In this document: positions 12,507 through 46,747 of the stretch, one piece after another | Position numbering within the stretch: position 1 is the stretch's first letter | How the letters are laid out: every line of letters begins with the position of its first letter | Assembly (NCBI GenBank): GCA_964502525.1 | Contig: CAZCXH010000004.1 | Coordinates: 45-64,044, forward strand | DNA: 64,000 bases | Source: an uncultured Chitinophagaceae bacterium | GTDB taxonomy: Bacteria; Bacteroidota; Bacteroidia; Chitinophagales; CAIOSU01 | Direction of reading: 5' to 3' | The notes under the pieces: generated by a model | The model's input: the letters and a program-made list of their open reading frames with translations, nothing else | Database searches by the model: none | What the model was told of the DNA's origin: nothing | Program-made: the position numbers and the translations under genes

Positions 12507-13454
12507 TTGAAATCCCTTCTTAAAAAATCTGTTCTCAGAAAGGTCAATCCTGAAATCCTTTCTCATCTCACCGTGAATGGCAGGCAGGCGAATGGTCACA
12601 GATTGAAGGTGCAAAAAACATATAAGATTTATATTGACGGGAAATTTCCGCGAACCGAATCCGGCAGGTATTACAAGCTGAAAAACAAAAAAGGCAATGT
12701 CATCGCCAGCATCAGCCGGTCGTCAAGGAAAGATTTCCGTGATGCGGTGGTGGCGGCAAGGAATGCTTTTGAAAAGTGGTCGTCACTCACCGCCTTCAAC
12801 CGGGGACAAATCATTTATCGCATTGCGGAAATGCTGGAAGGGCGCAGCGCCCAATTCGTTTCGGAACTGATTCAGCAGGGGCGGAGCATTGACGAAGCCA
12901 CCAGCGAAGTGACGCTTGCCATTGACAGAATGGCGTATTACGCGGGCTGGGCAGACAAATACCAGCAGGTTTTCAGCAGCGTGAACCCGACAAATGCTCC
13001 TTACTTTAATTTCTCGATATATGAGCCGACCGGAGTGGTGGGTGTCATCGCTCCGCAGGAAAATTCATTGATCGGATTGGTTTCAACCATAATCCCGGCT
13101 ATCACCGGAGGAAATACCTGCGTTGTTCTTGCCTCCGAGCTATTGCCGTTGTGCGCTGTGACATTCGCAGAGGTTTTACATTCATCGGATGTTCCCGGTG
13201 GTGTGGCAAATATCCTGACCGGCTTTCGCAGGGAACTCATCGGGCAGTTTTCTTCGCACATGGACGTGAATGCGATCATCTTCAGCGGTGACGACAAGAA
13301 AGAAATAAGAACCATCCAGGAAAATGCCACTTTGAACGTGAAGCGTGTTGTCATTCATAAGGAAACGGACTGGATGAAGGAAACTTCGCAAAATCCTTAT
13401 TTCATCCTCGACACCCAGGAAATCAAAACCACCTGGCATCCGGTGGGGATTTGA
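12507..13454 (+). CDS. aldehyde dehydrogenase-family protein lacking the catalytic-Cys domain (start uncertain)
   Basis: ALDH N-terminal/NAD-binding motifs are present: KIYIDGKF, GVVGVIAPQENSL, GGNTCVVLASE, IIFSGDDKKEI, LNVKRVVI. The ORF stops ~30 aa after the position where ELGGK and the Cys loop normally follow. There is no in-frame ATG near the 5' end (TTG 12507 or GTG ~12573). Confidence 0.6.
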   Translation: MKSLLKKSVLRKVNPEILSHLTVNGRQANGHRLKVQKTYKIYIDGKFPRTESGRYYKLKNKKGNVIASISRSSRKDFRDAVVAARNAFEKWSSLTAFNRGQIIYRIAEMLEGRSAQFVSELIQQGRSIDEATSEVTLAIDRMAYYAGWADKYQQVFSSVNPTNAPYFNFSIYEPTGVVGVIAPQENSLIGLVSTIIPAITGGNTCVVLASELLPLCAVTFAEVLHSSDVPGGVANILTGFRRELIGQFSSHMDVNAIIFSGDDKKEIRTIQENATLNVKRVVIHKETDWMKETSQNPYFILDTQEIKTTWHPVGI

Positions 13455-16502: not shown

Positions 16503-19500
16503 CTACCGCAGCAGCGTAACGCTTCCCTTGAACTGCTTTCTCTCCCCATTCAGAAAAACGCCTTCCACCCAATAAACATACACGCCCGGATTCTGCATCT
16601 CTCCCCCGTCCGTTCCATCCCAAAATTCTCCAATGGTACGGGTTTCAAACAGTTTCTCTCCCCAGCGGTTGAAAATGATGCAGGTGATCTCCGAAAGCGA
16701 TGAGGTGAAGAAAATTTCAAATTCATCATTTATGCCGTCTCCATCAGGGGAGAATGCGTTTGGCGCGTGGATGCTGTTGTTGTAATCCAGGTCAATGAAA
16801 GCCCTTGCCGTTGCCGCGCAATTTCCACCCTGCACGGTGATGCTCACCGTAATCCAAACCGGCTCAGTGGGAACTATGGTCGGTTCAGCGCAGGGAGCAA
16901 TGCACCATAACGGCAGGCTGGATGGTTCCCATGCATAAGAAGGCGAGACGTATGCAGGTGAATGAACCGCGCGAAGCGTGACGCTGTCGCCATAAGTGAC
17001 AGTGGTATCCGCAGGGATAATCACAACGGTCAGAGGCGGAGGCTCGTTCAGCATGACCGTGGCGGATGCGGTGCAGCCATTGCCATCGGTTGCGGTAACG
17101 GTATAAATGCCTGCGCTTGCCCCGGTCATTTCAGCGTCATTGGACGGAGGGCTGTTATTCCATAAATAAGATACCGCACCGGTTCCTCCGTTTGCGCTTG
17201 CCAACGCAAACCCGGAGCTTTCCCCATGGCAAAGCGGATTGGCGTAAGTGTCAATAACCGCGACCAGCAATACCGGTTCCGTCACAACTGGGCTGACGGT
17301 TGCCGTGCAACTGTTTGCGTCCGTCACCGTCACATCATAGCTGCCTGCCGGAAGGTTCACTGCGCTTGAGGTGATTTGGTTGTCCGCACCGCCATCCCAT
17401 TGATATGAGTATGAAGGGGTGCCGCCATACGCTGTAACCGATGCTATGCCATTGCTGTCGCCATTGCAAACCACAGGAGTTGCGATTGCTGAAAGATTCA
17501 TCTGAGACGGCTCGATAACGGAGTATGAACCGCTGACGGAACAGTTATTATTATCGGTAACAACAACGGTGTAACTTCCGGCACTGAGCGAATCAATATA
17601 TGGCGTCATCCGGTTATTCGTCCATGAGTAACTGTAATCCGGAGTTCCGCCTGTTACACTCAGATCAGCGTACCCGGTGTTTTCTCCATTGCAACCGACA
17701 TTGCCGATAACAGCGGTTAATTCTAACTGCGGAGGCTCGCTTATCAGCGCGGTGTCGAAAGCAAGGCATCTGTTGGAATCGGTAACGGTTACGTAGTAAG
17801 TTCCTTCGGAAAGATTTCGCGCTGTGTCATTTGTAATGGAATTGCTCCACTGATAGGTGAACGGACCATTCATCCCTGTTGCCATGGCAATAGCTATGCC
17901 GTCATTTCCGCCAAAGCAGTTGACGCTTCCGGTTGTTATTGAAGTGGCGATGGGAGGAGGCGTATTGATGACGAGCCTGATGGTGTCTGTGCAGCCGTTC
18001 GCATCGCGCACCACCGGCTGATAATTCCCTCCCGGAACATTCGTGAATGAAGATATTGATTGAAACTGATTGCCAATTGAAAACTGATAAGACTGCGTTC
18101 CTCCCGATGCCGAAAGATGAATTTCCCCGTCAGCGCTCGTAAAGCATTTCGCGTCTTCTGAATAGCCGGTCAATACCAGCGAGTCGGGTTCATTAACAAC
18201 GTATCCGGATGTTGCGGTGCAGTTATTCGCATCAATAACGGTCACGATGTATGCGCCTGCAACCACGGCATTCAAATCTTCAGTAATCGCGGAATTTGAC
18301 CATTGGTAGCGATAGGGCGTCACGCCACCGCTGACATCAATGTTCACGGTTCCTGTATTTCCGCCATTGCACAGCACATGCGTTGACGCACCGGTTATGG
18401 CAAGCGCGGTTGGTTCGGTGATGGCATAGGAAGCCGTTGCATTGCAAGCGTTCATATCAACAGCAATGACATCATAGTTTCCGGCTGTTAATCCGGTTAT
18501 ATCTTCCGTGCTTGCGTTGTTTGACCAGATGAATTGAAATGGCGCTGTTCCTCCGTTCACAGTGAGATAGATGGCACCGTCATTCCCCTGCGCGCAGCTC
18601 ACATGTGTCAATGCTCCGGTGAGTTCGACTGAATCCGGTTGCGTCAATGTGAACGAGGCTGTGGCTATGCAGTTGTTGAAATCGGTTGTCGTCACCGAGA
18701 ATGTGCCGGCTGCAACGCCTGAAATATCTTCGGTTGATGCGTTATTCGACCACGAGTAAGCGAATGGATTGACTCCTCCCGAAGCAGTGAGATCAATTGC
18801 GCCAGAATAATCTTTGAAGCAGAGCAGATTGGTAGTGATTCCACTGAGCACGATAGCCGGAGGTTCGGCAACTGCAAAGGCTGAAGTATCTGAACACTGA
18901 TTTGCATCAAAAACAGTTACCATATAACTGGCGGCTGAGATTCCAATCAGATCTTCGGATACTTCAGCATTTGTCCAGCGATAGGCATACGGCACTGTTC
19001 CTCCGCTGACGGAAAGATTAATCTCTCCTGAGCTATCTCCATTGCATATAACATCAATCACGTTTCCATTGACAACAAGCGGTGATGGCTCGTTGATTGT
19101 TGCTGAAGATGAGGCAGTGCAGAAATTGGAATCAATTACCACCACGCTGTAAGCGCCTGCGGCTAAACCTGAGATATCTTCCGTTGCCGCATTGTTCGAC
19201 CAGGTGAACCGGAATGGCTGTGTGCCGCTGATAATGGTGAGGTCAATGGCTCCGTCATTTCCACCCGCGCAGTTCACATCGGTTTTTACCAGAGTCAAAA
19301 CAATGGAATCGGGCTGTGTTAATGTGAAGGAAGCAGTGGCGGAACAGGAATTGAAATCTGTGGCTGTAACCGAGTAGATACCCGCAGCAACACCTGAAAT
19401 ATCTTCGGTGACCGCATTGTTTGACCACAGAAGTGAAAACGGCTGAACTCCTCCTGAGACAGTGAGGTCAACAGCGCCCGTATTGGCTGTGTTGCAGGCG

Positions 19501-22500
19501 ACATGCGTGATGATGCCGCTTAGCATGATTGCCGGAGGTTCTGCAACCGGGAAGGTCGAAGAAACCGTGCATTGGTTGGAATCTGTGATGATAACGGAGT
19601 AGCTTCCCGCAGTTACCAATGATAAATCTTCTGATACCGCTGAGTTGGACCATTGAAAATTATAAGGAGTGGCGCCTCCTGCAACCGTAATGTCAACATC
19701 GCCCGTGTTTTCTCCGTTGCATAAAACATCAGTGATAATCCCGTTAACAGCAAGCGCAGCGGGTTCGGTGATAGTGACCGATAAAGCCGTTGTACATAAA
19801 TTCGAGTCAATAACAACCACGTCATAAACATTCGCGCTCAATCCCGTGATGTCTTCTGTTGTTTCATTGTTCGACCAATTAAATTGATAGGGATTAACTC
19901 CTCCGCTGACCGAAAGATCAATAGCTCCGTCATTTCCACCGTTGCAGGCAATATCAGTTGTTGCCGTTGACAACGCGATTGCGTCCGGTTCGTCAAGCAT
20001 AAACGATTTTATCCCGGAACACAAATTCGAATCGGTGGCAATAACCGAGTAAGTTCCTGATGCAACGCCTGAAATATCCTCGGTAATTGCATTATTTGAC
20101 CACAGAAATGAAAATGGTTGAACTCCCCCTGAAGCGGTTAAATCAATGGTTCCGGAATTATCACCATTGCAAAGAAGATTGGCGACAATCCCGTCAAGTG
20201 CGATGGCGGATGGCTGGCCAACAACAAACGCAAGCGTATCCGGACAAAGATTTGCATCCAAAACAGTCACCATATAATTTCCGGCAGCAATGCCATTAAG
20301 ATCTTCGACAATGGCTGTGTTTGACCATTGGTAACTATAGGGTCCGACTCCTCCAACTGCCGCAAGGTCAATAGCTCCGGTACTCTCACCGTTGCACGAC
20401 ACATCCGTAACAATTCCGCTCACCGCGAGAACCGAAGGCTCGGAAATGGTTGCTGAGGCTGATGCAATGCACAAATTGGAATCCATAACAATCACGTCAT
20501 AGGTATTGGCGGTCAATCCGGCAAGGTCTTCCGTGTAGGTATTGTTCGACCAGTTGAACCGGTAGGGGATGATTCCTCCGCTGACCGAAAGATCAATGGC
20601 TCCGTCATTTCCACCGTTGCAACTCACGTCTGTTTTCACAGAAGTTAAGACAATTGAATCAGGTTGAGAGAGAGAGAATGATGCTGTCGCGCTGCATAAA
20701 TTTGAATCTGCAGCCGCAACCGTATAGATTCCCGCGGCAACGCCTGAAATATCCTCGGTAATTGCATTATTTGACCACAGAAATGAAAATGGTTGAACTC
20801 CCCCTGAAGCGGTTAAATCAATGGTTCCGGAATTATCACCATTGCAAAGAAGATTGGCGACAATCCCGTCAAGTGCGATGGCGGATGGCTGGCCAACAAC
20901 AAACGCAAGCGTATCCGGACAAAGATTTGCATCCAAAACAGTCACCATATAATTCCCGGCAGAAATGCCAGCCAGGTCCTCAACATCGGATGTATTCGAC
21001 CATTGATAGCCGTAAGGCGCGACTCCACCGTTAACCGTCAAATTAATCGCACCGGTGCTTTCACCGTTGCACGAAACATCGGTCACAATGCCATTCGCTA
21101 TCAGCGCGCCCGGTTCAGCGATTGCTATCGAAGAGGACGCGGAGCATAAATTCGAATCAGTTACAATCACATCATAAACATTGGCAGATAACCCTGTAAT
21201 ATCTTCCGTTGCCGCATTGTTCGACCAGTTGAATTGATAAGGAAAAACTCCACCGCTTGCCGCGAGATCAATAGCTCCGTCATTTCCTGCGTTGCAACTC
21301 ACATCCGTTTTGACAGAGGTTAAAACAATTGAATCCGGTTCTGTGAGCGCAAAAGTCATTGATGCGGTGCATGAATGTGAGTCGGTGGCAATCACCGAAT
21401 AGGTTCCCGCAGCCGCTCCCGAAATATCTTCGGTAACAGCATTGTTCGACCATAAAAACGAATAAGGCAAAACTCCACCGGCAAGCGTTATGTCAATCAT
21501 ACCGGAGCTGCCGCCATTGCATAAAAGGTCAGTGGCGTTTCCGTTCAGAACGAGCGCTGAAGGTTCCAAAACAATGACGGTTAACGAATCGGGACATTGG
21601 TTCATATCAAGAACATTTACAGCATATGTTCCTGCAGGTACACCGGTCAGGTCTTCGGCAACTGCGCCATTTGACCATGAGTAGCTGAACGGGCCGGTGC
21701 CGCCATTAACCGTCAAATTCACCGAGCCGTCAGACGCGCCATTGCATTTTGCGTTAATGACCATTGCGCTTAACGTAATGCCCGGGCTCGACATCACAAA
21801 AAATGAATCCGTTGCAACACAACCGTTCAAATCCGTAACCGTCAGCAAATAATTTCCTCCGGCAAGATTGGCAATATCTTCCGTGACGGACGCGTCCGAC
21901 CAAATGAATGTGTAGGGCGCGGTTCCGCCTGTGATGGAAACATACACAGCGCCATCATCGCTGAAAGAGCAGGACGAGTTGACTATTGAATCAAGCTCAA
22001 TCATGAGCGGTGCGGGTTCAATAATGCTTGCGCTTTGCGTAGTGACGCAGTTGCTGTCATCCCGCAAGGAAACTGAATAAGAACCGGGACTGAGACCGGA
22101 AAAAATATTGGAAGATTGAAAATTTATTCCATCAATGGAATACTCGTACGGAGCAACTCCGCCAGTCGCGGCAATGTCCATTCCTCCATCCTGCGCTCCG
22201 CTGCAGCTAACATGCGTGACGGAAATATTTTCCGTTAGTGCGGAAGGCTCACCGATAACAAAGCTGACTGTATTCACGCACTGCCCGGCATCGGACTGCT
22301 CAATGGTGTAATCGCCACCCGGCAGTAAACTCAGCGTGTCGAAATCATTTACCGCGGTGCTGGTTTTTAAAATATTCCCCAGGCTGTCGCGCCAAACGAA
22401 ATCAAATGGTGCGGTTCCCTGTCCTTCCGCAATAACCCAGCCGTCAGCAGCGCCATTGCAGGATGCCCCTTTCATTTGCAGCAGCGGTTCAGGACAATCA

Positions 22501-23927
22501 GTGTATGTTGCAAAAAATTCAAAAACCGGGTCGGCAGCGCAGGCAAAGCTGGTCCACGAGCCTGTTTCACCGTCACCGAAAGTATTGACTGAAACATTCA
22601 AATTATTTCCATTGGTGCACCGGGCTACCGTAATATCCCAGCAGAAGACGAAATTCACCACGCCCGTGCAGTTGTCCCCGTAATTATCTCCCGGATCATT
22701 GGGGTCGCAAATACCGGCACACCCTAATATTGACTCATAGAAAAATCCGGGACCTGCAGTAGTTCCCGTGACGCTGCTTGTCACGGAGTTATACCATTTC
22801 CACGACCCGTTGAAGTCGCAGGTGGGCGGGGGATAGGTGACCAGCGTGGACATGTCCCAGCACTGACCAAAATCAGGTACGATGCCATGCAGCCAGTTGG
22901 ATGATGTCGGGTTCCACCGGGTTACCGTGAGGCAAAAGTGAACGGTGGTTCCCGCCTGGTAAACACCGCCAGAAGGCAGCGGTGACGCGGTTAACAAAGC
23001 GTTGATCACGCAGGGGTCGCAGTCATTTCTTCCCGTGATGGTCAACGTGAAGTCGCCTTTCTCCGTTGTGTCGCCTCCTGAAATCTGGAGGTAATATGTT
23101 TGACCGCGCGTGATAGGCTGAAAAGAAGCCTGTAAATTTCCAAACGCTCCCACGGCACAACCTCTGCCGATGAAAGTATTGCAGTCTGTTCCTTCGTAAA
23201 GCCCGATGTTGGGATTATATAATCCTGAGATGCTGATGTCAATGATGTTCGATGAGGCAACGAAGGTGTACCACACGTCAGCGGCAGGCGCTGCCATGTT
23301 GCTGCCTGCGGGCTGGCAGCCGGTAAGGTAGCGGTAAGGTGTTGATGCTGTTGCTCCCGTGTTGCTGAGGCAAAAGACATTGGTTGCCGTACCGGTGAAG
23401 GGACAGTTGGGGGGAGCCGAAAGGGTTCCGAGGTGGCAGGCATTCGGGCAGATATCGGGAGGAGTTGATGCGCAGAAAGGCGTTGTGCCTGTGCAGGGCG
23501 GAGGAGGCGGACAAGATACGCAGGCAATATTTGCCGACCATCCGGGATTGGATATGGAAAAATCGGAATCGAAAATGAAAGTCAGGCAACCGTTAGTGGC
23601 GGTCACCGTGCCGGGCGAATTGGTGCCGGAATAGGTGCCAATGATGGGATAAGCCGAAGACGCTCCATCATAGATCGTCAGATCATCGAAGGTGCTTTCA
23701 AGATCGAAAGATGTGAATGTGATGGAGAGGCACTTGCCTGCTGCGGTCGGGCAGAACGTGGTGGCAATATTTTCACCATCCGCATAGTTTCTCGAAGGTC
23801 CTCCGGAATCGTAGAAATATCCTGAGCATGCGGCAATGACGCCTCCGGGATTATTGTAGTTCTGCGCGTGAAGGATGCAGGTGGCAGCGCTTATAATCAA
23901 AAAAATTCCTGCAAGCCGTTTCATCAT
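16503..23927 (-). CDS. giant T9SS-secreted surface protein: CUB-like N-domain, >20 SprB-type repeats, type B (CHU_C) sorting domain
   Basis: Signal peptide MMKRLAGIFLIISAATCILHAQ. The N-terminus (CSGYFYDSGG..TFTSFDLES.FDDLTIYDG..) is CUB-like. ~75-aa repeats (C.G..DG.I.L...GG..P+.+.WSN.A.TEDI.GL.AG.Y.V.V.D.N.C) match the SprB repeat. The C-terminus (PNAFSPDGDGINDEF..IFNRWGEKLFE..WDGT..GVYVYWVEG..KGSVTLLR) matches the TIGR04131 pattern. Confidence 0.9.
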   Translation of the reverse strand: MMKRLAGIFLIISAATCILHAQNYNNPGGVIAACSGYFYDSGGPSRNYADGENIATTFCPTAAGKCLSITFTSFDLESTFDDLTIYDGASSAYPIIGTYSGTNSPGTVTATNGCLTFIFDSDFSISNPGWSANIACVSCPPPPPCTGTTPFCASTPPDICPNACHLGTLSAPPNCPFTGTATNVFCLSNTGATASTPYRYLTGCQPAGSNMAAPAADVWYTFVASSNIIDISISGLYNPNIGLYEGTDCNTFIGRGCAVGAFGNLQASFQPITRGQTYYLQISGGDTTEKGDFTLTITGRNDCDPCVINALLTASPLPSGGVYQAGTTVHFCLTVTRWNPTSSNWLHGIVPDFGQCWDMSTLVTYPPPTCDFNGSWKWYNSVTSSVTGTTAGPGFFYESILGCAGICDPNDPGDNYGDNCTGVVNFVFCWDITVARCTNGNNLNVSVNTFGDGETGSWTSFACAADPVFEFFATYTDCPEPLLQMKGASCNGAADGWVIAEGQGTAPFDFVWRDSLGNILKTSTAVNDFDTLSLLPGGDYTIEQSDAGQCVNTVSFVIGEPSALTENISVTHVSCSGAQDGGMDIAATGGVAPYEYSIDGINFQSSNIFSGLSPGSYSVSLRDDSNCVTTQSASIIEPAPLMIELDSIVNSSCSFSDDGAVYVSITGGTAPYTFIWSDASVTEDIANLAGGNYLLTVTDLNGCVATDSFFVMSSPGITLSAMVINAKCNGASDGSVNLTVNGGTGPFSYSWSNGAVAEDLTGVPAGTYAVNVLDMNQCPDSLTVIVLEPSALVLNGNATDLLCNGGSSGMIDITLAGGVLPYSFLWSNNAVTEDISGAAAGTYSVIATDSHSCTASMTFALTEPDSIVLTSVKTDVSCNAGNDGAIDLAASGGVFPYQFNWSNNAATEDITGLSANVYDVIVTDSNLCSASSSIAIAEPGALIANGIVTDVSCNGESTGAINLTVNGGVAPYGYQWSNTSDVEDLAGISAGNYMVTVLDANLCPDTLAFVVGQPSAIALDGIVANLLCNGDNSGTIDLTASGGVQPFSFLWSNNAITEDISGVAAGIYTVAAADSNLCSATASFSLSQPDSIVLTSVKTDVSCNGGNDGAIDLSVSGGIIPYRFNWSNNTYTEDLAGLTANTYDVIVMDSNLCIASASATISEPSVLAVSGIVTDVSCNGESTGAIDLAAVGGVGPYSYQWSNTAIVEDLNGIAAGNYMVTVLDANLCPDTLAFVVGQPSAIALDGIVANLLCNGDNSGTIDLTASGGVQPFSFLWSNNAITEDISGVASGTYSVIATDSNLCSGIKSFMLDEPDAIALSTATTDIACNGGNDGAIDLSVSGGVNPYQFNWSNNETTEDITGLSANVYDVVVIDSNLCTTALSVTITEPAALAVNGIITDVLCNGENTGDVDITVAGGATPYNFQWSNSAVSEDLSLVTAGSYSVIITDSNQCTVSSTFPVAEPPAIMLSGIITHVACNTANTGAVDLTVSGGVQPFSLLWSNNAVTEDISGVAAGIYSVTATDFNSCSATASFTLTQPDSIVLTLVKTDVNCAGGNDGAIDLTIISGTQPFRFTWSNNAATEDISGLAAGAYSVVVIDSNFCTASSSATINEPSPLVVNGNVIDVICNGDSSGEINLSVSGGTVPYAYRWTNAEVSEDLIGISAASYMVTVFDANQCSDTSAFAVAEPPAIVLSGITTNLLCFKDYSGAIDLTASGGVNPFAYSWSNNASTEDISGVAAGTFSVTTTDFNNCIATASFTLTQPDSVELTGALTHVSCAQGNDGAIYLTVNGGTAPFQFIWSNNASTEDITGLTAGNYDVIAVDMNACNATASYAITEPTALAITGASTHVLCNGGNTGTVNIDVSGGVTPYRYQWSNSAITEDLNAVVAGAYIVTVIDANNCTATSGYVVNEPDSLVLTGYSEDAKCFTSADGEIHLSASGGTQSYQFSIGNQFQSISSFTNVPGGNYQPVVRDANGCTDTIRLVINTPPPIATSITTGSVNCFGGNDGIAIAMATGMNGPFTYQWSNSITNDTARNLSEGTYYVTVTDSNRCLAFDTALISEPPQLELTAVIGNVGCNGENTGYADLSVTGGTPDYSYSWTNNRMTPYIDSLSAGSYTVVVTDNNNCSVSGSYSVIEPSQMNLSAIATPVVCNGDSNGIASVTAYGGTPSYSYQWDGGADNQITSSAVNLPAGSYDVTVTDANSCTATVSPVVTEPVLLVAVIDTYANPLCHGESSGFALASANGGTGAVSYLWNNSPPSNDAEMTGASAGIYTVTATDGNGCTASATVMLNEPPPLTVVIIPADTTVTYGDSVTLRAVHSPAYVSPSYAWEPSSLPLWCIAPCAEPTIVPTEPVWITVSITVQGGNCAATARAFIDLDYNNSIHAPNAFSPDGDGINDEFEIFFTSSLSEITCIIFNRWGEKLFETRTIGEFWDGTDGGEMQNPGVYVYWVEGVFLNGERKQFKGSVTLLR
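20062..20279. repeat. 218-bp exact internal repeat, copy 1 (inside the SprB-repeat gene)
   Basis: Identical to 20737-20954 (offset 675 bp = 3 SprB repeats). Flanking repeats are only ~70-80% similar. The antisense ORFs 20087.. and 20762.. share an identical 64-aa prefix. Confidence 0.85.
20737..20954. repeat. 218-bp exact internal repeat, copy 2
   Basis: See 20062-20279. Confidence 0.85.
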
Positions 23928-24289
23928 TTTTAACGCAAGCCAATGGTTTCGGGAGTTTGCGGCCCTGAATATCGGGAATCTTAAGGAAATTTAGAAAATA
24001 TTTCCAAACCGCTGTTCTCTTTCTTCAGACCGGGCGCACGACAAATTTTTTCGCTTCGCTCTGGAAGCCAGAATCGCAAGCGCAAAATGGAAAGCATTTA
24101 CTTAGCTATCGAGCAAATAAAAGCGGAGCAAAAGACGCATCCGAAATTATTTGCACATTGGCGGGCAGGCGATACGATTTAAGACTAACAAGAGCCCCGA
24201 TATGATCGGAGGAGACTGTACGCACCGTTCTGTGAGAAGGCGGGGGTGAAACTCCCCCGATCTACTCGACCTCTCTATTCCGAAACAGA

Positions 24290-24364
24290 TTGATAATCAC
24301 TGAGATTTAAAGGCGTGTTGCCCTGGACAGGGGTGAGGCTGGTCAGGACAATCGCCTAATTTCG
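24290..24364 (+). promoter_or_regulatory. ~75-nt promoter-proximal repeat element, copy B (ends in the -7-like box TAATTTCG)
   Basis: TTGATAATCActgaGATTTAAAgGCGTGTTGCCCT, then ~33 nt, then AATCGCCTAATTTCG, 22 nt before the ATG at 24386. Homologous to 12426-12499. Confidence 0.45.
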
Positions 24365-24385
24365 CCACATTATTAAATCATAAAA

Positions 24386-25381
24386 ATGACTCAACCGAAA
24401 ATCGAAACTGCGCTGACGCGGATGCTGGGCATCCGCTACCCGATCATCATGGCGCCCATGTTCCTGGTGTCGAATGCGAAGATGGTGATAGAGGCAAACA
24501 ATGCGGGCATCACAGGAGCCATTCCTGCGCTGAATTACAGGACTGACGCTGATTTCCGCAAGGCGCTGGATGAAATACGCCAGGGGACGAATGGCCCCGC
24601 GGGCATCAATCTCATCGTCAATAAATCGAATATCAAATTAAAGGAGCAACTGCAAACCTGCCTTGATTACAAAGTGGAGTATATCATCACCTCGCTGGGA
24701 AGCCCGCAGATGGTGATTGACGTGTGCAAGCCGAAAGGCATTAAAGTGTTCAGCGATGTGACGGACGAGCGGTTTGCGCTGAAGGTGGAGGCGATGGGCG
24801 CTGACGCCATCATTGCCGTGAATGCCGATGCGGGCGGCCATGCCGGCCCGCTGCCGGCCTCTGTGCTGATTCCGCAACTGGTGAAAGCATGCAAAGTTCC
24901 CATCATATCTGCGGGGGGCGTGGGCAAGGGAGAGCACCTCATCGAAAAGCTGCAGTGGGGATCGTGTGGCGCGAGCATCGGCAGCCCGTTCATCGCATCC
25001 AACGAGGCGGACGTTTCGATGGAATACAAGCAAGCCATCGTTGACTATGGCGCCAAGGACATCGTGATGACCACCAAGATTTCAGGTACGCCCTGCACCG
25101 TCATCAATACGCCCTACGTTCAGCAGATCGGCACGAAGCAAAACTGGTTTGAAGCGCTGCTGAATAACAACCGCACGATAAAGAAATACACCAAGATGCT
25201 CACCTACTACAAGGGCATGAAAGCGCTGGAGAAAGCCGCCTTCAGCGCCACCTACAAGACCGTGTGGTGCGCGGGTCCTTCAATCGAATATGTCCACTCC
25301 ATCCGCCCGGTGAGGGAGATTGTGGAAACGCTCATCCGGGAATATTTTGTGGCGAAGGCGAAGGAGACGGTGGCAGGTTGA
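24386..25381 (+). CDS. nitronate monooxygenase / FabK-like NAD(P)H-dependent flavin oxidoreductase
   Basis: IRYPIIMAPMFLVSNAKMVIEANNAGITGAIPALNY and ..ISAGGVG.. are typical of the NMO (2-nitropropane dioxygenase-like) TIM-barrel family. The gene is GC-rich. Confidence 0.85.
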   Translation: MTQPKIETALTRMLGIRYPIIMAPMFLVSNAKMVIEANNAGITGAIPALNYRTDADFRKALDEIRQGTNGPAGINLIVNKSNIKLKEQLQTCLDYKVEYIITSLGSPQMVIDVCKPKGIKVFSDVTDERFALKVEAMGADAIIAVNADAGGHAGPLPASVLIPQLVKACKVPIISAGGVGKGEHLIEKLQWGSCGASIGSPFIASNEADVSMEYKQAIVDYGAKDIVMTTKISGTPCTVINTPYVQQIGTKQNWFEALLNNNRTIKKYTKMLTYYKGMKALEKAAFSATYKTVWCAGPSIEYVHSIRPVREIVETLIREYFVAKAKETVAG

Positions 25382-26115
25382 GGCTGGATTAAGATTGTAC
25401 CTCAACCCCGCAAATAAATAACTGTCATCGTGTTGAAAGACAAGAGCTGCGCTGATCGCACGACTCCGTAATTTTCACTTATTCAAGTGAAAAATTAATA
25501 AAATAAAAGATTTAAACATAGATAATGGAGAAACACAAACCTTGTCAATCGGGAAAATTCTATTTGCACTCAATTATTTGAGAAAACTTTTTAAAGAGAA
25601 TAAAAAGTTACAGGCTGTACAAATTTCAGACTATATAAAAACACTTACCAGCTGCTCATGTCTCTACTCATATTACTATGGATAAAGCTGTTGCTGTTCA
25701 AATCTTTGAATTTTGAATTGCAAAATTCACGAGGCATTAAACTAAATCTAATAGAAAAGATTAAGGCGAAATTGATGAAGGCGGTTTATATAGAAGCTGT
25801 TAATGCTGAAGAAAATATAATTAGGATATAGAATAATTTTGCTGAAATATATCGCTTTGAAGAATCTATAAACGCCAATGCATTTAGAGGCGAAGGGACT
25901 CTCGAAGATATTTTGCTGCATCATTTGAGAGTTGTGGATAACAGAACAAAATTATCCGCCAACGATAAAAATGACTTTAATAGTCCGGCAAAATCAGGTA
26001 ATAAGGAGGAGGCTATCATGAACTATCTTACCAAGCAGATTGGTGAAAAACAAGATGTTGTAGAATACATTGTAAGCCTTTCGGAAAGTTTTAAAAATTC
26101 GGTTGAGCTAATTAG

Positions 26116-26331
26116 CATTTAAAGTATATCAAGACACTTCCGCTTCACGACACACAGCAAATTTTGGTTGACACCGAAGATGAATTGCAGATAAAGTTAA
26201 AGTTGTGTGTAACCCACGACCTGATTATGGAATTGCTTTCCTTTGGAGACAGCATGAAAGTTTTACAACCGAAATCTTTAGCAGAAAAAATAAAGGCAGC
26301 ACATCAAAAAGCAGCGAGACAATACAAATGA
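26116..26331 (+). pseudogene. C-terminal remnant of a WYL-domain transcriptional regulator
   Basis: 71 codons with no start codon: ..PLHDTQQILVDTEDELQIKLKLCVTHDLIMELLSFGDSMKVLQPKSLAEKIKAAHQKAARQYK*. This matches the usual WYL-regulator C-terminal extension (hpsQ...l.l.v..n.eL...iLsfG..v.VleP..L). The upstream 700 bp is AT-rich and full of stops. Confidence 0.5.
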
Positions 26332-26382
26332 AATAGAAAGCCTCGAAGGATTCAGGGCAGAGCAGAAAAAGGCTTCATCCCC

Positions 26383-26602
26383 AGCCACTCCAGCGCTGCG
26401 CCACTTAATAATTTTTCTTTCACCTGTGAATTGAAGGGCATAGATTCAATCAGTTTTCCCGGTTCGTGCTCGCCCAGCGGAAAAGGATAGTCGCTGCCGA
26501 GGCACACGCGGTCAGCGCCAACCAGATTCACCAAGTAATCGAGCATCTGCGCGTCATGCACCAGGCTGTCGAGCCAGAATTTGCCAAGATAATTTTTAGG
26601 CT
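26383..26602 (-). pseudogene. orphan duplicate of the ACMSD-type amidohydrolase 3' end
   Basis: Encodes PKNYLGKFWLDSLVHDAQMLDYLVNLVGADRVCLGSDYPFPLGEHEPGKLIESMPFNSQVKEKLLSGAALEWLG. This is identical to the C-terminus of 27390-28424 except for one E/K change, at only ~89% nt identity. The stop codon is lost and there is no upstream coding part. Confidence 0.8.
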
Positions 26603-26614
26603 TAATGTCACCGG

Positions 26615-27196
26615 TTAATTTGGAAAATGCAACTTATATACACGCTCGCTTAAATCTCTATCTTGCCTTGCGAGTGGCGGTGATGTAACAGTTTTTAGCT
26701 TCTCTTGCAGGGCGGAGCCTGCTATTGCAAAGAGGCCGAATAGTAGCGAGAGCAGTATGAACCCGGCATCTCCATAGCGAACTCCTTCATAAAAAAGGAA
26801 GCCGGTATAAAAATAAAGAAAACAATTAATTACGTAAACAATTGTATGCGCGCCTCCGAAGCAGGTTAATTTAGTCATTGCTTTAACTGTTTTCTGTTCA
26901 ACTGAAGCGGGCTGAAATTTTTTCGCTATTATGAAGTATTCAAAGTCCCGTTTAAGCTCCCTCCTCAGCAACCTGTTGTAATGATGGTCATATTCCTTAT
27001 CGTAAGCTTTTTTGGTCGCCTTATTGGAAAGAAACTGATAGGCTCTGTTGATTTTAGCAAATTTTTCAAGCGCATCAGGGCTGTTATTTATGTCAGGATG
27101 CCATTGCAGGGAGAGCTTTTTGAAGGCAGCCTGTATCTCCTTTTTTGTTGCGTACCTGCTGATGCCTAAAGTATTATAGTGGTTTGGAAAAGACAT
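26615..27196 (-). CDS. J-domain (DnaJ-like) membrane protein
   Basis: NHYNTLGISRYATKKEIQAAFKKLSLQWHPDIN with the HPD motif, then 2-3 C-terminal TM helices. The start is taken at MSFPNHY (27196). Confidence 0.75.
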   Translation of the reverse strand: MSFPNHYNTLGISRYATKKEIQAAFKKLSLQWHPDINNSPDALEKFAKINRAYQFLSNKATKKAYDKEYDHHYNRLLRRELKRDFEYFIIAKKFQPASVEQKTVKAMTKLTCFGGAHTIVYVINCFLYFYTGFLFYEGVRYGDAGFILLSLLFGLFAIAGSALQEKLKTVTSPPLARQDRDLSERVYKLHFPN

Positions 27197-27389
27197 AGGG
27201 TTAATAGGGCTACTAAAGTTAGCACAAAACCTCACGAAATGACACAAGCCGGAGCGCATGCACTGAGCGGATTTTCGCTTATGCCTAAACAAGGATGCAG
27301 CACAAGGCTCAGGCAGCGCAGCCTTGCAGAAACAAGGGTATTTCTGAAGCAGGAGGAGTGTTAAACTCTAACAGTAAACATTTCCCGTT

Positions 27390-28424
27390 TCATCCTAGCC
27401 ATTCAAGCGCAGCACCACTTAGCAATTTTTCTTTCACCTGCGAATTGAACGGCATGGATTCAATCAGCTTGCCCGGCTTGTGCTCGCCTAGCGGAAACGG
27501 ATAATCGCTGCCGAGGCACACACGGTCAGCGCCAACCAGATTCACCAAGTAATCGAGCATTTGTGCGTCATGCACTAAACTGTCGAGCCAGAATTTGCCG
27601 AGATAATTTTTCGGGTTTACAGCATTATGCTTTGCAATCAAATCAGGTCGCACCTTGAAGCCGTGCTCAATTCTGCCAATCGTTGCGGGAAATGAGCCGC
27701 CCCCATGCGCAAAAGCAACGCGCAGCTTCGGCAGCTTTTCAAACACGCCTCCGAATATCATCGAACAGATTGCCAATGAAGTTTCTGCAGGCATACCCAC
27801 CAGCCACGGCAGCCAGTAATCCGGCATTTTTTCTTTGCCCATCATATCCCACGGATGTACGAAAATTGCGGCATTTAATTTTTCTGCGGCTTGAAAGAAG
27901 TGAAAAAGCTCAGGCGCGTTCAGATTCCAGTCGTTCACATGCGAACCGATTTCAACTCCCGCCAATCCGAGTTCTTTTATGCAGCGTTCCAATTCTTTTA
28001 TTGCCAAATCAGGTGCTTGCAGCGGCACTGTTCCTAAACCGATAAACCGTTTTGGGTTTTCTGTAACAACGCTTGCGATATGGTCATTTAAAAATCTTGA
28101 AACTTCCAGCGCATCATCCGGTTTCGCCCAATAGCTGAACAACACCGGAATCGTTGAAAGCACCTGCACATCAACATGATGCGCGTCACATTCTTTCATG
28201 CGCACTTTTGCATCCCAGCAGTTGGATTCTATCTCACGAAAAAATTTATCGCCAATCATCATTCTTGCGCAACATGGTTGATGATGTTCAAGATGCACAA
28301 AACCATCGTAGCCGAATTTCTGCGACCAGCGAGGAAGTTCCTTCGGGAGGATGTGGGTGTGGATGTCAATCTTCAGCTCTGAGTGTTGGGTGTTGAGTGT
28401 TGGGTAAGGAGTAATGAGTGTCAT
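27390..28424 (-). CDS. 2-amino-3-carboxymuconate-6-semialdehyde decarboxylase (ACMSD)-type amidohydrolase
   Basis: Collinear with eukaryotic/bacterial ACMSD as I recall it: KIDIHTHILPKE..FGYDGFVHLEHH, NCWD..VR..ECD, LSTIPVLFSYWAKP, YWLPWLVGMPAETSLAICSMIFGGVFEK.PKLRVAFAHGGGSFP.TIGRIEHGF.VRPDL, GSDYPFPLGE..PGKLIESM. Confidence 0.88.
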   Translation of the reverse strand: MTLITPYPTLNTQHSELKIDIHTHILPKELPRWSQKFGYDGFVHLEHHQPCCARMMIGDKFFREIESNCWDAKVRMKECDAHHVDVQVLSTIPVLFSYWAKPDDALEVSRFLNDHIASVVTENPKRFIGLGTVPLQAPDLAIKELERCIKELGLAGVEIGSHVNDWNLNAPELFHFFQAAEKLNAAIFVHPWDMMGKEKMPDYWLPWLVGMPAETSLAICSMIFGGVFEKLPKLRVAFAHGGGSFPATIGRIEHGFKVRPDLIAKHNAVNPKNYLGKFWLDSLVHDAQMLDYLVNLVGADRVCLGSDYPFPLGEHKPGKLIESMPFNSQVKEKLLSGAALEWLG

Positions 28425-28428
28425 GTAT

Positions 28429-28671
28429 TCAGTTGGGGCTTATTTCTCTTTCGAGAAATTTGATGTATCCAATTAAAAGTTTTCTTACCTCCGCAAGTTG
28501 AGCGTGAATTGCTTCAGTCTGAGATGATTGTGCGAAATCCAAATCTTCTGATAAGTAAAGCCGTGATGCCAGCTTGTAAATAGACCTTGCTCTGTTTCTC
28601 TTTTTGAATTTCTGCCGATACTCCTCCAGATTCCACCTCGAATATTCTGCTACAGTATAAGTTCGCGACAT
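28429..28671 (-). CDS. hypothetical protein (possibly a degenerate four-helix-bundle protein fragment)
   Basis: 80 aa from the internal Met. The tail (..LYLSEDLDFAQSS...QLAEVRKLLIGYIKFLE) loosely resembles the C-terminal half of TIGR02436-type proteins. The longer ORF overlaps the ferritin start. Confidence 0.3.
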   Translation of the reverse strand: MSRTYTVAEYSRWNLEEYRQKFKKRNRARSIYKLASRLYLSEDLDFAQSSQTEAIHAQLAEVRKLLIGYIKFLEREISPN

Positions 28672-28786
28672 ATCCTGCTCCTCGGCAACCAGCGATTTAT
28701 CTTTTCGGTCATTCTTTGAAATTATCAATATTTCATCAAAATGAAAATGTAATTTCACCGCAATAAATTTCAAAAAACAACCTGCA

Positions 28787-29305
28787 ATGATTTCAAAAAA
28801 ACTTGAAAAGGCTCTGAATGCCCAAATCAAATTGGAAGCGGAAGCATCCTTCAATTATCTCGCCATGGCTTCATGGTGCGAGCAGAAAAGTCTGAATGGG
28901 GCGGCTAAATTTTTCTATGCCCAGGCGGAAGACGAGCGCCAGCATATGCTGAAAATTTTCCTGTATATCAATGATCTGGAAGGACATGCTCTTGCACCTT
29001 CGGTTGACCAGCCGGCAACAGAGTTCAAATCCATTCTGGATGTTTGCTCAAAGGCTTTGGCGGGCGAGCAAAAGGTGACCAAATCAGTTCACAAATTGTC
29101 AGAGTTTGCGACTGAGGAAAAGGATTATGCCACCTACAACTTTCTGCAATTCTTTGTTGACGAGCAGCGGCAAGGCGAAACGGTTTTTAACCACATTCTC
29201 GACAAAATCAAACTCATCGGGCTGGAGGGGATGGGGCTGTATTATATTGACAAAGAGCTGGAATCATTGGCTGGTGGCGGAGGTAAGACAGATGCAAACG
29301 AATAG
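28787..29305 (+). CDS. ftnA: non-haem ferritin
   Basis: LNAQIKLEAEASFNYLAMASWCE..FFYAQAEDERQHMLKIF.Y carries the ferroxidase-centre residues. The size (172 aa) is typical. Confidence 0.9.
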   Translation: MISKKLEKALNAQIKLEAEASFNYLAMASWCEQKSLNGAAKFFYAQAEDERQHMLKIFLYINDLEGHALAPSVDQPATEFKSILDVCSKALAGEQKVTKSVHKLSEFATEEKDYATYNFLQFFVDEQRQGETVFNHILDKIKLIGLEGMGLYYIDKELESLAGGGGKTDANE

Positions 29306-29307
29306 TT

Positions 29308-30039
29308 TCACTTCCGCAAAAAACTATTTCGCTTTACAAAGCACAGATCGCACTCAATGAGCGAGCCGTCATGATGCTGGCGTAAAAATCCGGCAAAATC
29401 ATATATCACATAATCCCGCTCATTCATGAATGTTACTACATCTGCAATCAGCGGATAACTTTTGTGCTTATTGTGCAGCGCAGCTTCGATGATGAACAAT
29501 TCGGTTTTTCCGAAAACAGATTCAGCGCCCTTCAGCACTTCCAATTCATAGCCCTGCACATCTAATTTCACCAACTCAGGAATTTCCATCTGTCCTGTTT
29601 TAATCAATTCGTCAATCGTCCACATCTCCACCATGCGGGGAGTCCTCTTGTCCTTTTGAGGAATGTCCTCCTCCATGAAGCCCGACCAGGCAAGGTCTTT
29701 GAAAACCCTGAGGGGTTGCATACCGAGGTTGGGGCCCACTGAGAAGTCGAAAAATTTACACCTGGCATTGCGCCTGCAAAATTCTTCGAGCATTTGTTTC
29801 ATCTCTTTCAGCGGCTCTACCAGATAAATTGCCGCTTCAGGATATATTGCAATTGCCATACCGGCAAATTTGCCCCTGTAAGCTCCCACATCGAGAATGT
29901 AGTTGCATTGCAGTCCGCGTTTTTTTACATCACTCAAAAAACTTTCCATTTCACCCACAGGCGAATTCCATTTGCGGGTGATTTCAAGGCCAAAAGCATT
30001 GAACAGCTTCTTAACAACCTTTTCCAAGCCTCCATTCAT
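29308..30039 (-). CDS. FkbM-family methyltransferase
   Basis: ILDVGAYRGKFAGMA SAM-binding motif and an overall FkbM (TIGR01444-like) layout. Convergent with ferritin, 2 nt apart. Confidence 0.8.
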   Translation of the reverse strand: MNGGLEKVVKKLFNAFGLEITRKWNSPVGEMESFLSDVKKRGLQCNYILDVGAYRGKFAGMAIAIYPEAAIYLVEPLKEMKQMLEEFCRRNARCKFFDFSVGPNLGMQPLRVFKDLAWSGFMEEDIPQKDKRTPRMVEMWTIDELIKTGQMEIPELVKLDVQGYELEVLKGAESVFGKTELFIIEAALHNKHKSYPLIADVVTFMNERDYVIYDFAGFLRQHHDGSLIECDLCFVKRNSFLRK

Positions 30040-46592: not shown

Positions 46593-46747
46593 ATCTCCCG
46601 TCATTTTATCCGCTAAGAGGCTGATTTGGAACCTCTTTATCCTGCTTTCAGTTGTAGCAAACATACAGTACCTTTACTCAAAGCCTTTAGCGCGATCTTT
46701 ATTGCCGGATGGTTCGGTGCCATCCGGAGTTTGAGGCATTGAGTAAC

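What the first reader, a model, noticed from the sequence alone, without database searches (positions are those of the whole stretch)
26383..27612. J-domain gene bracketed by two diverged copies of the ACMSD 3' end that differ almost only synonymously
26383-26602 and 27392-27612 are direct repeats about 1010 bp apart, flanking a J-domain membrane-protein gene. By my alignment they differ at ~25 of ~218 nt (~11%). The 74 shared codons show a single amino-acid change (E/K).

The orphan copy therefore evolved under purifying selection as part of a functional ACMSD gene in another lineage. It did not decay in place. The simplest reading is that the J-domain cassette arrived by homologous recombination from a related donor, carrying the donor's ACMSD 3' end as one arm. 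This gives a natural record of cassette acquisition.
Basis: partly seen in the sequence, partly recalled or inferred. Interest (0 to 1): 0.55.

Follow-up and report, generated by a model that had tools for sequence, protein, structure and literature searches.

The report
Foreign insert displaced a gene's end
A 1-kb piece of foreign DNA, carrying a substitute end for a tryptophan-breakdown gene (ACMSD) plus an orphan chaperone-like gene, was spliced into that gene and left the gene's own end stranded just downstream; this is a clean but ordinary kind of gene-transfer scar, built like the classic e14 prophage at the E. coli icd gene.

Summary
Repeat A (27393-27617) is the in-frame last 75 codons of the ACMSD gene. 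Repeat B (26379-26603) is an orphan copy. They align without gaps at an offset of 1014 bp and bracket a J-domain gene (26615-27199).

They differ at 27 of 225 nt, split 3/0/24 by codon position: 25 synonymous and 2 non-synonymous changes, dN/dS 0.014. Decay of a local duplicate is excluded, so the copies diverged inside working ACMSD genes of two lineages. An independent Logan contig spans both junctions, so this is not an assembly artefact.

A and the J gene look foreign: the rare Leu codon CTA fills 3/13 and 3/21 Leu codons, against 1.6% in native genes. B and the ACMSD 5' part (0/13 and 0/25) look resident.

Best reading: about 1 kb of donor DNA (substitute 3' end plus J gene) joined the resident ACMSD near codon 268 and displaced the resident end. 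No integrase, tRNA or second instance was found. The likeliest mechanism is homology-anchored with one illegitimate joint. E. coli icd/icdC around e14, computed here, shows the same pattern (12/165 differences, 1/0/11). This is a known kind of scar and of modest interest.

The parts
27390..28424 (-). Full-length ACMSD (2-amino-3-carboxymuconate-6-semialdehyde decarboxylase) gene, 344 aa. Codons 1-269 look resident. The last 75 codons are copy A.
   Evidence: Pfam Amidohydro_2, 4.9e-43. E = 1e-139 to human ACMSD, residues 17-344 against 1-329. Closest relatives are 92% identical at the amino-acid level, in Chitinophagales MAGs. The 5' part has native-like codon usage, with 0 CTA among 25 Leu codons.
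27393..27617 (-). Repeat copy A: the in-frame last 75 codons of ACMSD, inferred to be donor-derived substitute 3' end.
   Evidence: 88% identical to B with no gaps. Three CTA Leu codons among 13, against 1.6% in native genes; 0 of 527 native 75-codon windows have 3 or more. Codon score P = 0.011.
27360..27392 (-). Out-of-frame remnant of A's C-terminal tail (MKREMFTVRV*), created by a 1-nt deletion that makes the TGA at 27390-27392.
   Evidence: Alignment with the relatives' tails, such as MKKERFVS. BLAST homology to L003 and L004 runs to 27376-27377.
27200..27359 (-). Spacer upstream of the J gene. It has no homolog in relatives and is part of the inferred insert.
   Evidence: BLAST against all fetched loci hits only L002. 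No Rfam match.
26615..27199 (-). J-domain gene (193 aa plus stop). N-terminal J domain with HPD motif, hydrophobic C-terminal half. An ORFan.
   Evidence: Pfam DnaJ, 5.2e-21. Only an identical copy and one homolog at 36% identity among 5.8e9 proteins. The C-terminal 125 aa have no homolog among 1.84e9 representatives. GC is 41% against 48% in native genes. Three CTA among 21 Leu codons.
26604..26614 (-). Non-homologous joint between the end of the J gene (stop codon at 26615-26617) and the orphan ACMSD fragment.
   Evidence: Sequence ...TAA CCGG|T GAC ATT AAG...; ACMSD-like codons begin at about 26609-26610. L002 crosses this joint.
26379..26603 (-). Repeat copy B: orphan last 75 codons of an ACMSD gene with an intact reading frame and no start context. 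Inferred to be the resident gene's displaced original end.
   Evidence: Pfam Amidohydro_2, 3.9e-09, profile positions 217-288 of 289. Native-like codons (0 CTA among 13 Leu; score P = 0.89). Carries E in GEHEPG, as L009 and L010 do.
26340..26378 (-). B's own 8-codon tail (MKPFSALP) and TGA at the canonical position, then about 12 nt resembling the ACMSD-stop/GATase-start overlap of relatives. Homology then breaks.
25400..26339 (.). AT-rich patch (34% GC) with no intact gene. It contains a C-terminal WCX-domain fragment of a WYL-type regulator at 26164-26331 (+). It replaces the GATase and kynureninase genes that follow ACMSD in relatives. This is a separate rearrangement next to B.
   Evidence: Composition. 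Pfam WCX, 3.2e-08. Six-frame translation is full of stops. No GATase in the window.
28444..28646 (-). Truncated, frameshifted remnant of the four-helix-bundle (23S rRNA IVP / bAvd-like) gene that precedes ACMSD in relatives. It marks another breakpoint, on the upstream side.
   Evidence: tblastn with the L003 and L004 IVP proteins matches residues 48-121 only, in two frames. The 3-HAO gene is absent from the window.

Best explanation
This is a recombination scar of the 'C-terminal displacement' type.

What is there: about 1.0 kb of DNA from a related but distinct lineage is joined in frame to the resident ACMSD gene at about codon 268. It consists of the last 75 codons plus tail of that lineage's ACMSD gene, a 160-nt spacer and an orphan J-domain membrane-protein gene. 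ACMSD stays whole because the incoming DNA brought its own substitute 3' end, including the essential DYPFP metal-ligand region. The resident gene's original last ~85 codons were pushed 1 kb downstream. They sit there untranslated, directly after the J gene's stop codon.

Shown:
- the two 3' ends diverged under purifying selection in separate lineages;
- both junctions exist in an independent assembly;
- the J/B joint is non-homologous;
- A and J share an atypical codon signature, while B and the 5' part look native.

Inferred mechanism: the ACMSD homology served as the anchor for one homologous exchange. The longest identical run between the copies is 38 nt. The far end of the incoming DNA was joined illegitimately to resident codon ~267/268. 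This corresponds to homology-facilitated illegitimate recombination, or equivalently to a single crossover of a circularised fragment. No dedicated recombinase is involved.

Timing: the event is recent relative to the A-B divergence. B has at most 1-2 non-synonymous changes and no stop or frameshift, so it has been drifting neutrally for no more than about 3-4% of that divergence.

Prediction: recombination between A and B would delete the J gene and rebuild a hybrid ACMSD.
For: - Repeat and selection: 27 of 225 differences, 3/0/24 by codon position, dN/dS 0.014, P = 8e-15.
- Divergence level: A-B dS of 0.84 is similar to the window's dS against the closest species in the rest of the gene (0.88-1.15). 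A and B are each other's closest relatives and are equidistant from outgroups.
- Junctions are real: L002, a Logan contig from run SRR14932511, is 100% identical over 26517-27453. It ends 30 nt into the 38-nt run shared by A and B, which I infer is what a de Bruijn graph with k = 31 would give.
- Polarity: CTA makes up 18 of 1137 Leu codons in 21 native genes. It is 3/13 in A, 3/21 in J, 0/25 in the ACMSD 5' part and 0/13 in B. None of 527 native 75-codon windows has 3 or more CTA. Codon score P is 0.011 for A and 0.89 for B. The log-likelihood ratio at 23 synonymously differing codons is -13.5 bits in favour of B being native.
- B keeps the canonical tail length, the stop position and a trace of the downstream GATase start found in relatives. 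A does not.
- The insert is compositionally foreign: the J gene is 41% GC against 48% in native genes.
- No recombinase or att-type landmark: no integrase in ORFs within about 10 kb either side, no tRNA in the window, no Rfam hit in 24000-30000.
- No second ACMSD fragment in any of 80 related genomes, so this is not a recurrent site-specific target.
- ACMSD alleles of this clade are mosaic, so inter-lineage recombination in this gene does occur (max chi-square, permutation P 0.0002-0.002).
- Several other illegitimate breakpoints lie within 2.5 kb: the truncated IVP gene, the truncated WCX fragment and the missing GATase.
Against: - No donor arrangement (ACMSD followed by J) and no empty site (5' part continuous with B) was found anywhere. 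Polarity and mechanism therefore rest on composition alone.
- The codon-usage argument depends largely on three CTA codons that I noticed after looking at the data. The a priori sign-flip test is only P = 0.035 one-sided and 0.07 two-sided.
- A divergence of 12% is unfavourable for RecA-dependent exchange.
- In textbook homology-facilitated illegitimate recombination, pairing would be expected to run to the end of the homology rather than stop near codon 268.
- The joint lies only 4-8 nt after the J stop codon. That is tidy for a random illegitimate event.
- Logan contig L002 may derive from the same reads as the source assembly.
Confidence: 0.6

Rival explanations
1. This is the remnant of a site-specific integrative element of the e14/phage-21 type. 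Such an element targets the ACMSD 3' end and carries a substitute 3' end in its attP. Internal deletion then removed the integrase and everything except the J gene, leaving a CIME-like remnant (an att-flanked element that has lost its own recombination genes).
For: The anatomy matches E. coli icd / e14 / icdC, computed here: 12 of 165 differences, 1/0/11 by codon position, 2 amino-acid changes, with the orphan 3' fragment at the far end of the element (PMC13626634). The in-frame copy looks foreign and the orphan looks resident, as that model requires. J-domain proteins occur in phage families, though the PHROG hits cover the J domain only.
Against: There is no integrase, excisionase or transposase between the repeats or within about 10 kb. 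The insert is only 1014 bp, and the J stop codon lies about 5 nt from the joint, which leaves no room for a non-coding att arm. No other ACMSD in 80 related genomes carries a second 3' fragment. The J gene has no relatives in the viral contigs.
Confidence: 0.15
2. The in-frame copy A is the resident end. The orphan B, with or without the J gene and the AT-rich patch, is the foreign arm brought in from a donor and inserted downstream of an untouched ACMSD.
For: A and B are equally distant from all outgroups, so phylogeny cannot decide between them. B is flanked on both sides by low-GC, apparently foreign DNA. A's out-of-frame tail resembles the relatives' tail (F at position 6) more than B's does.
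Against: A, not B, has the atypical codon usage, and it shares this with J. B keeps the canonical stop position and a trace of the GATase start typical of the clade's operon. B's fragment begins abruptly at codon ~267. That is what a displaced resident end looks like, and it would be an odd arm for recombination that left A untouched.
Confidence: 0.15
3. The duplication is an assembly artefact: a chimera of two co-occurring Chitinophagales populations in a metagenome.
For: The source is a metagenome-assembled contig. Conserved genes are typical chimera points. No long reads are available.
Against: The J/B joint is non-homologous, so a shared k-mer cannot have created it. An independent Logan contig from a single run carries A-specific variants, the whole J gene and 87 nt of B-specific variants at 100% identity. 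The only A/B stretch long enough to confuse an assembler is 38 nt.
Confidence: 0.04
4. This is a local tandem duplication whose copies then diverged in place.
For: Direct repeats close together on one strand are the usual signature of local duplication.
Against: A non-coding orphan would accumulate about 76% non-synonymous changes. About 40 would be expected for the observed synonymous divergence, but 2 are seen. The codon signatures of the two copies differ. A-B dS equals the between-species dS.
Confidence: 0.01

Closest known systems
Cryptic prophage e14 (and phage 21) integrated in the 3' end of E. coli icd, with the icdC pseudogene (Hill, Gray and Brody 1989; PMC13626634)
   Same: The inserted DNA supplies an in-frame substitute 3' end for a housekeeping or metabolic gene. 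The host's original 3' end survives as an orphan at the far side of the insert. The two copies differ almost only synonymously: icd/icdC has 12 of 165 differences, 1/0/11 by codon position, 2 amino-acid changes; here there are 27 of 225, 3/0/24, 2 amino-acid changes. Recombination between the copies would excise the insert and make a hybrid gene.
   Different: e14 is 15.2 kb and encodes IntE and XisE. Here the insert is 1,014 bp with one J-domain gene and no recombinase. No other genome shows ACMSD used as an attachment site.
C-terminal displacement with orphan arrays in Rhs, CdiA and T6SS effector-immunity loci (Jackson et al. 2009; Kirchberger et al. 2017, PMC5361080)
   Same: Incoming DNA that shares the conserved upstream part of a gene inserts a new 3' end plus a cargo gene and shifts the old 3' part downstream as an orphan. 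The proposed mechanism is homology-facilitated illegitimate recombination, with no integrase known.
   Different: There the new 3' ends encode different toxins and the cargo is an immunity gene, so displacement is the point of the process. Here the old and new ends encode the same protein sequence of a metabolic enzyme. The cargo is unrelated, and there is only one displaced copy.
Homology-facilitated illegitimate recombination during natural transformation or conjugation (de Vries and Wackernagel 2002; Prudhomme et al. 2002, cited from memory; PMC3240628)
   Same: One-sided homology anchors foreign DNA, and the other end joins without homology. No recombinase is needed. Events are rare and leave foreign DNA next to the anchor.
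   Different: Experimental events usually delete or replace recipient DNA beyond the anchor. Here the illegitimate joint lies inside the anchor gene, so a stretch homologous to the donor is retained as a repeat.
ICEs, IMEs and CIMEs integrated in the 3' ends of protein genes, for example ICESt1/ICESt3 in fda (from memory)
   Same: Direct repeats made of a gene's 3' end flank the element. CIMEs lack their own recombination module.
   Different: Their repeats are short, near-identical att cores. No related ICE or integrase is seen here.

Membership tests
Site-specific integrative element with 3'-end replacement (e14/phage 21 type) | In-frame substitute 3' end at one border and orphan host 3' end at the other border | tested here: met
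   A is in frame and B is an orphan, at offset 1014. The same pattern was computed for icd/icdC.
Site-specific integrative element with 3'-end replacement (e14/phage 21 type) | Integrase (with or without excisionase) encoded within the element | tested here: not met
   The only gene between the repeats is the J-domain gene. Pfam scans of neighbouring ORFs within about 10 kb found no integrase or recombinase.
Site-specific integrative element with 3'-end replacement (e14/phage 21 type) | The same target used repeatedly, or related elements present in other genomes | tested here: not met
   None of 80 related genomes has a second ACMSD fragment near ACMSD. The J gene is absent from the viral and JGI contigs and from 5.8e9 proteins, apart from an identical copy.
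Site-specific integrative element with 3'-end replacement (e14/phage 21 type) | Short identical core at the crossover, at the 5' edge of the repeat | tested here: inconclusive
   The first identical run at the edge is 11 nt (AAAAATTATCT), preceded by two mismatches. This is compatible with a core but not diagnostic.
Homology-facilitated illegitimate recombination / C-terminal displacement | Foreign DNA contiguous with a stretch homologous to the recipient (the anchor) | tested here: met
   A is 88% identical to B and is contiguous with the foreign-looking J segment. Both share the CTA-rich codon signature.
Homology-facilitated illegitimate recombination / C-terminal displacement | Second junction non-homologous (microhomology at most) | tested here: met
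   At the J/B joint...TAACCGG|TGACATT..., there is no similarity between the J end and ACMSD codon 267. Microhomology cannot be assessed without the donor sequence.
Homology-facilitated illegitimate recombination / C-terminal displacement | Old 3' part retained downstream as a non-expressed orphan | tested here: met
   B's frame is intact. It lies in a different frame from J, and no start codon precedes the GVG at 26561. Expression was not tested.
Homology-facilitated illegitimate recombination / C-terminal displacement | Donor and recipient states identifiable (donor arrangement and empty site) | tested here: not met
   Neither state was found in any collection searched.
Diversity-generating retroelement (TR/VR pair at a gene's 3' end, near an Avd-like gene) | Differences confined to adenines of one copy, with a reverse transcriptase nearby | tested here: not met
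   The differing bases are a mix of all four bases in both copies and lie at third codon positions. No reverse transcriptase was found among the ORFs scanned. The bAvd-like gene is a truncated remnant.
ACMSD (amidohydrolase-2 decarboxylase of the kynurenine / 2-nitrobenzoate pathways) | Full-length similarity to solved ACMSD structures, and pathway neighbours in relatives | tested here: met
   E = 1e-139 to human ACMSD over the whole fold. Relatives have 3-HAO upstream, and L003 also has kynureninase downstream. In this window those neighbours are missing.

The most novel reading that the evidence does not exclude
The 1-kb unit could be a recombinase-free, homology-guided gene cassette. In this reading a small piece of DNA spreads among related genomes because it carries a synonymously diverged copy of a conserved gene's 3' end as a built-in homology arm. 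It would insert by a single crossover without inactivating the target. It would then be bracketed by direct repeats that let it loop out again as a 1,014-bp circle and re-insert elsewhere.
Probability: 0.08. Interest if true: 0.6.

Novelty: new member of a known kind. Interest (0 to 1): 0.3.

Why it matters
This is a well-preserved natural record of how foreign DNA can enter a conserved metabolic gene without destroying it. Both the incoming and the displaced 3' ends are still readable. The time since the event can be bounded, to no more than about 3-4% of the divergence between donor and recipient.

It extends the e14/icd and Rhs-style displacement pattern in three ways: to an uncultured Chitinophagales bacterium, to a non-toxin gene, and to a very small insert with no recombinase.

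For annotation, it warns that the orphan fragment is a scar and not a gene. It also shows that the ACMSD here is a hybrid with a truncated tail, sitting in a locus that has lost its pathway neighbours.

It does not reveal a new mechanism or system.

Tried and rejected
- Exact look-ups of the window's ACMSD and J proteins found no contig. This was tried with two J start sites. P0123, which is probably the source NCBI contig, could not be fetched.
- Search for a donor arrangement (ACMSD followed by J). tblastn of J against 80 GTDB loci with 10-kb flanks found nothing. The only J homolog, P0002 at 36% identity, sits in an unrelated three-gene context. The viral and JGI scans were empty or distant. 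The C-terminal half of J has no relatives among 1.84e9 representatives.
- Search for an empty site through flanking genes. The NMO homolog with 93% amino-acid identity (L089) shares only the NMO gene with the window. L009, L010 and L004 share only ACMSD, or ACMSD and three genes that lie 30 kb away in the window.
- A third, degenerate ACMSD copy that would indicate tandem elements: none found.
- GATase remnants after A or B by tblastn: nothing significant. Only about 12 nt of nucleotide resemblance follows B.
- Phylogenetic polarity: A and B are equidistant from all outgroups. Sliding-window and maximum chi-square tests found mosaicism near codons 35-67 of the aligned block, not near codon 268.
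- Diversity-generating retroelement (TR/VR) reading, prompted by the bAvd-like neighbour: rejected. The differences are not adenine-specific and there is no reverse transcriptase.
- Integron cassette or attC: rejected, because there is no room after the J stop codon and no inverted repeats at the ends.
- tRNA or Rfam landmarks and terminator or promoter scans: uninformative.
Full report
**1. The observation**

The window carries a 344-codon gene on the minus strand at 27390-28424. It is a genuine ACMSD: Pfam Amidohydro_2 at 4.9e-43, and E = 1e-139 to human ACMSD across the whole fold. The repeat finder reports a 224-nt direct repeat, 26380-26603 and 27394-27617, at 88% identity and spacing 1014.

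Read on the coding strand, the in-register block is 75 codons. A is 27393-27617, the last 75 codons of the gene. B is 26379-26603, an orphan. There are 27 differences in 225 nt, distributed 3/0/24 over codon positions, giving 25 synonymous and 2 non-synonymous changes. NG86 gives dS 0.84, dN 0.011 and dN/dS 0.014. Getting at least 25 of 27 synonymous changes under neutrality has probability 8e-15.

Between the copies lies a 193-aa J-domain gene at 26615-27199 (minus strand). It hits Pfam DnaJ at 5e-21, has an HPD motif, and has a hydrophobic C-terminal half.

**2. Finer anatomy**

B's resemblance to ACMSD extends beyond the A/B repeat.
- Upstream it has two more codons, GAC ATT (D I). Relatives read D/N-V/I at that position, while A reads A V.
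- Downstream it keeps an 8-codon tail (MKPFSALP) and a TGA exactly where relatives stop.
- About 12 further nt resemble the stop/start overlap with the glutamine-amidotransferase gene that follows ACMSD in L003, L009 and L010.

B is thus a fragment of about 270 nt (about 26340-26610) of an ACMSD-GATase operon, cut on both sides.

A also has a homologous tail, but a 1-nt deletion (GGG to GG) creates a TGA straight after ...EWLG. The tail MKREMFTVRV* is left out of frame. The structural alignment to human ACMSD also ends at this LG, so the loss may be tolerated.

The J stop codon is only 4-8 nt from the first ACMSD-like base of B, and there is no similarity across that joint.

**3. Is it real?**

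Logan contig L002 is 937 bp and comes from a single run, SRR14932511. It is 100% identical to 26517-27453. It carries 61 nt of A with A-specific variants, the spacer, the whole J gene and 87 nt of B with B-specific variants.

L002 stops 30 nt into the only long identical run shared by A and B, which is 38 nt long. I infer that this is what a k = 31 graph would do. The J/B joint is non-homologous, so a shared k-mer cannot have created it. An assembly chimera is unlikely. The one caveat is that L002 may come from the same reads as the source MAG.

**4. What the divergence means**

A local duplicate left to decay would collect mostly non-synonymous changes. Roughly 40 would be expected at this synonymous distance, and two are seen. 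Both copies therefore diverged inside functional ACMSD genes.

The A-B dS of 0.84 matches the dS between the window's ACMSD core and the closest available species (0.88-1.15). Those species are the Chitinophagales MAGs L009 and L010, 92% identical at the amino-acid level. A and B are each other's nearest relatives and are equidistant from every outgroup.

Since the two came together, B has acquired at most one or two non-synonymous changes and no stop or frameshift. With about 175 non-synonymous sites, this bounds its neutral drift to about 0.03-0.04 substitutions per site, no more than about 4% of the A-B divergence. This bound is my inference from the numbers.

**5. Which copy is foreign?**

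Phylogeny cannot decide this, but codon usage can, at least suggestively.
- In 21 long native genes of the window, CTA makes up 18 of 1137 Leu codons (1.6%).
- A has 3 CTA among 13 Leu codons, and J has 3 among 21.
- The ACMSD 5' part has 0 among 25, and B has 0 among 13.
- None of 527 native 75-codon windows has 3 or more CTA.

I also simulated the same protein with native codon frequencies. A's codon score falls in the lowest 1.1% of simulations, while B is typical (P = 0.89). The summed log-ratio at the 23 synonymously differing codons is -13.5 bits in favour of B being native (sign-flip P = 0.035 one-sided).

The J gene is 41% GC, against 48% for native genes. Together with B's canonical operon trace, this indicates that A, the spacer and J form the incoming DNA. 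The 5' part and B would then be the resident gene. I hold this polarity at about 70%, because the CTA signal was noticed post hoc and rests on few codons.

**6. Mechanism**

Nothing points to a dedicated recombinase.
- The only gene between the repeats is J.
- Pfam scans of ORFs within about 10 kb either side found no integrase or transposase.
- The window has no tRNA genes, and 24000-30000 has no Rfam hit.
- None of 80 related species-level genomes has a second ACMSD fragment near ACMSD. ACMSD is therefore not a recurrent attachment site.
- The J gene is effectively unique. There is one identical copy, and one homolog at 36% identity sitting in another context. The C-terminal half has no relative among 1.84 billion representatives.

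The locus also shows several other illegitimate breakpoints within 2.5 kb.
- The four-helix-bundle gene upstream of ACMSD is truncated (28444-28646).
- The GATase and kynureninase genes downstream are replaced by a 34%-GC patch. That patch contains only a WCX-domain fragment.
- The 3-HAO gene is absent from the window.

ACMSD alleles of this clade are detectably mosaic, so inter-lineage exchange within the gene does happen.

The most economical account is a homology-anchored event. One exchange occurred within ACMSD homology, and one illegitimate joint linked the DNA just after the J stop codon to resident codon ~267/268. This corresponds to homology-facilitated illegitimate recombination, or to a single crossover of a circularised fragment. 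The steps shown are the two lineages, the real junctions, the non-homologous joint and the compositional link between A and J. The nature of the exchange and the polarity are inferred.

**7. Rivals**

- An e14-type site-specific element that later lost its integrase fits the anatomy. It fails the integrase and recurrence tests, and the J stop codon leaves no room for an att arm (0.15).
- Assembly artefact (0.04) and in-place duplication (0.01) are essentially excluded.
- A diversity-generating retroelement (TR/VR) reading was prompted by the bAvd-like neighbour. It is rejected because the differences are not adenine-specific, they lie at third codon positions, and there is no reverse transcriptase.

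**8. Comparison with what is known**

The closest textbook case is E. coli icd with prophage e14 and the icdC pseudogene. I computed it here from MG1655. The last 165 nt of icd and icdC differ at 12 sites, 1/0/11 by codon position, with 2 amino-acid changes. The orphan lies at the far end of a 15.2-kb element that encodes IntE and XisE (PMC13626634).

The present case has the same anatomy and the same signature. However, the insert is 15 times smaller and has no recombinase. That places it mechanistically closer to the 'C-terminal displacement' proposed for Rhs and T6SS effector loci through homology-facilitated illegitimate recombination (PMC5361080; PMC3240628). It differs from those in that the old and new ends encode the same enzyme sequence and the cargo is an unrelated J-domain ORFan.

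**9. Verdict**

The finding is real and clearly interpretable, but it is a new example of a known kind of horizontal-transfer scar, not a new system. The proposed mechanism needs an illegitimate or single-crossover step, and the donor/recipient assignment is probably reversed.

Interest is 0.3. The most novel reading not excluded is a recombinase-free, homology-guided mini-cassette able to loop out and re-insert. I give it about 8%.

Noticed in passing
window 25400-26339, including 26164-26331 (+): An AT-rich patch (34% GC, against 47% for the window) with stops in all six frames. It sits between the nitronate-monooxygenase-like gene and the orphan B. Its only recognisable piece is the C-terminal WCX domain of a WYL-type regulator (Pfam 3.2e-08). 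It occupies the place where relatives have the GATase and kynureninase genes.
   Followed up: partly
window 28444-28646 (-): Truncated, frameshifted remnant of the four-helix-bundle (23S rRNA IVP / bAvd-like) gene that precedes ACMSD in relatives. The 3-HAO gene that normally precedes it is absent from the whole window, as are kynureninase and the GATase. ACMSD therefore sits here without its pathway partners.
   Followed up: partly
window 27390-27395: A 1-nt deletion (GGG to GG) relative to copy B and to relatives ends the ACMSD ORF 8-10 codons early. The independent Logan contig confirms it.
   Followed up: yes
window 27618-28424 compared with L009, L010 and L004: ACMSD alleles of this Chitinophagales clade are mosaic. 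The first ~35-67 codons of the aligned block in the window's gene resemble L009. The rest is as close or closer to L010 and L004 (max chi-square, permutation P 0.0002-0.002).
   Followed up: partly
L001 10505-11254 (ENA scaffold_7864, protein P0003): An unrelated ACMSD gene of 493 aa contains an internal tandem duplication with a 450-nt period and 99% identity. It is either a very recent duplication or an assembly artefact.
   Followed up: partly
window 12507-13454 (+): An aldehyde-dehydrogenase ORF covers only profile positions 9-234 of 461, so it is apparently a truncated gene. Homologs lie near ACMSD in 32 of the related loci.
   Followed up: no
window 2735-3463 (-): An ISL3-family transposase fragment that covers only the first 74 of 240 profile positions.
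   Followed up: no
window 56791-61444: Three genes (Exo_endo_phos, His_Phos_1, Metallophos) lie 3-4 kb from ACMSD in L004 and L010, in the same relative orientation. Here they lie about 30 kb away, with two giant genes (40989-52432) in between. This implies a large insertion or rearrangement in this lineage.
   Followed up: no
window 16503-23927 (-): A 2,474-aa ORF whose sequence shows many tandem repeat units of about 80-90 aa. I ran no family search on it. By memory it resembles the large repeat-rich surface adhesins of gliding Bacteroidota.
   Followed up: no
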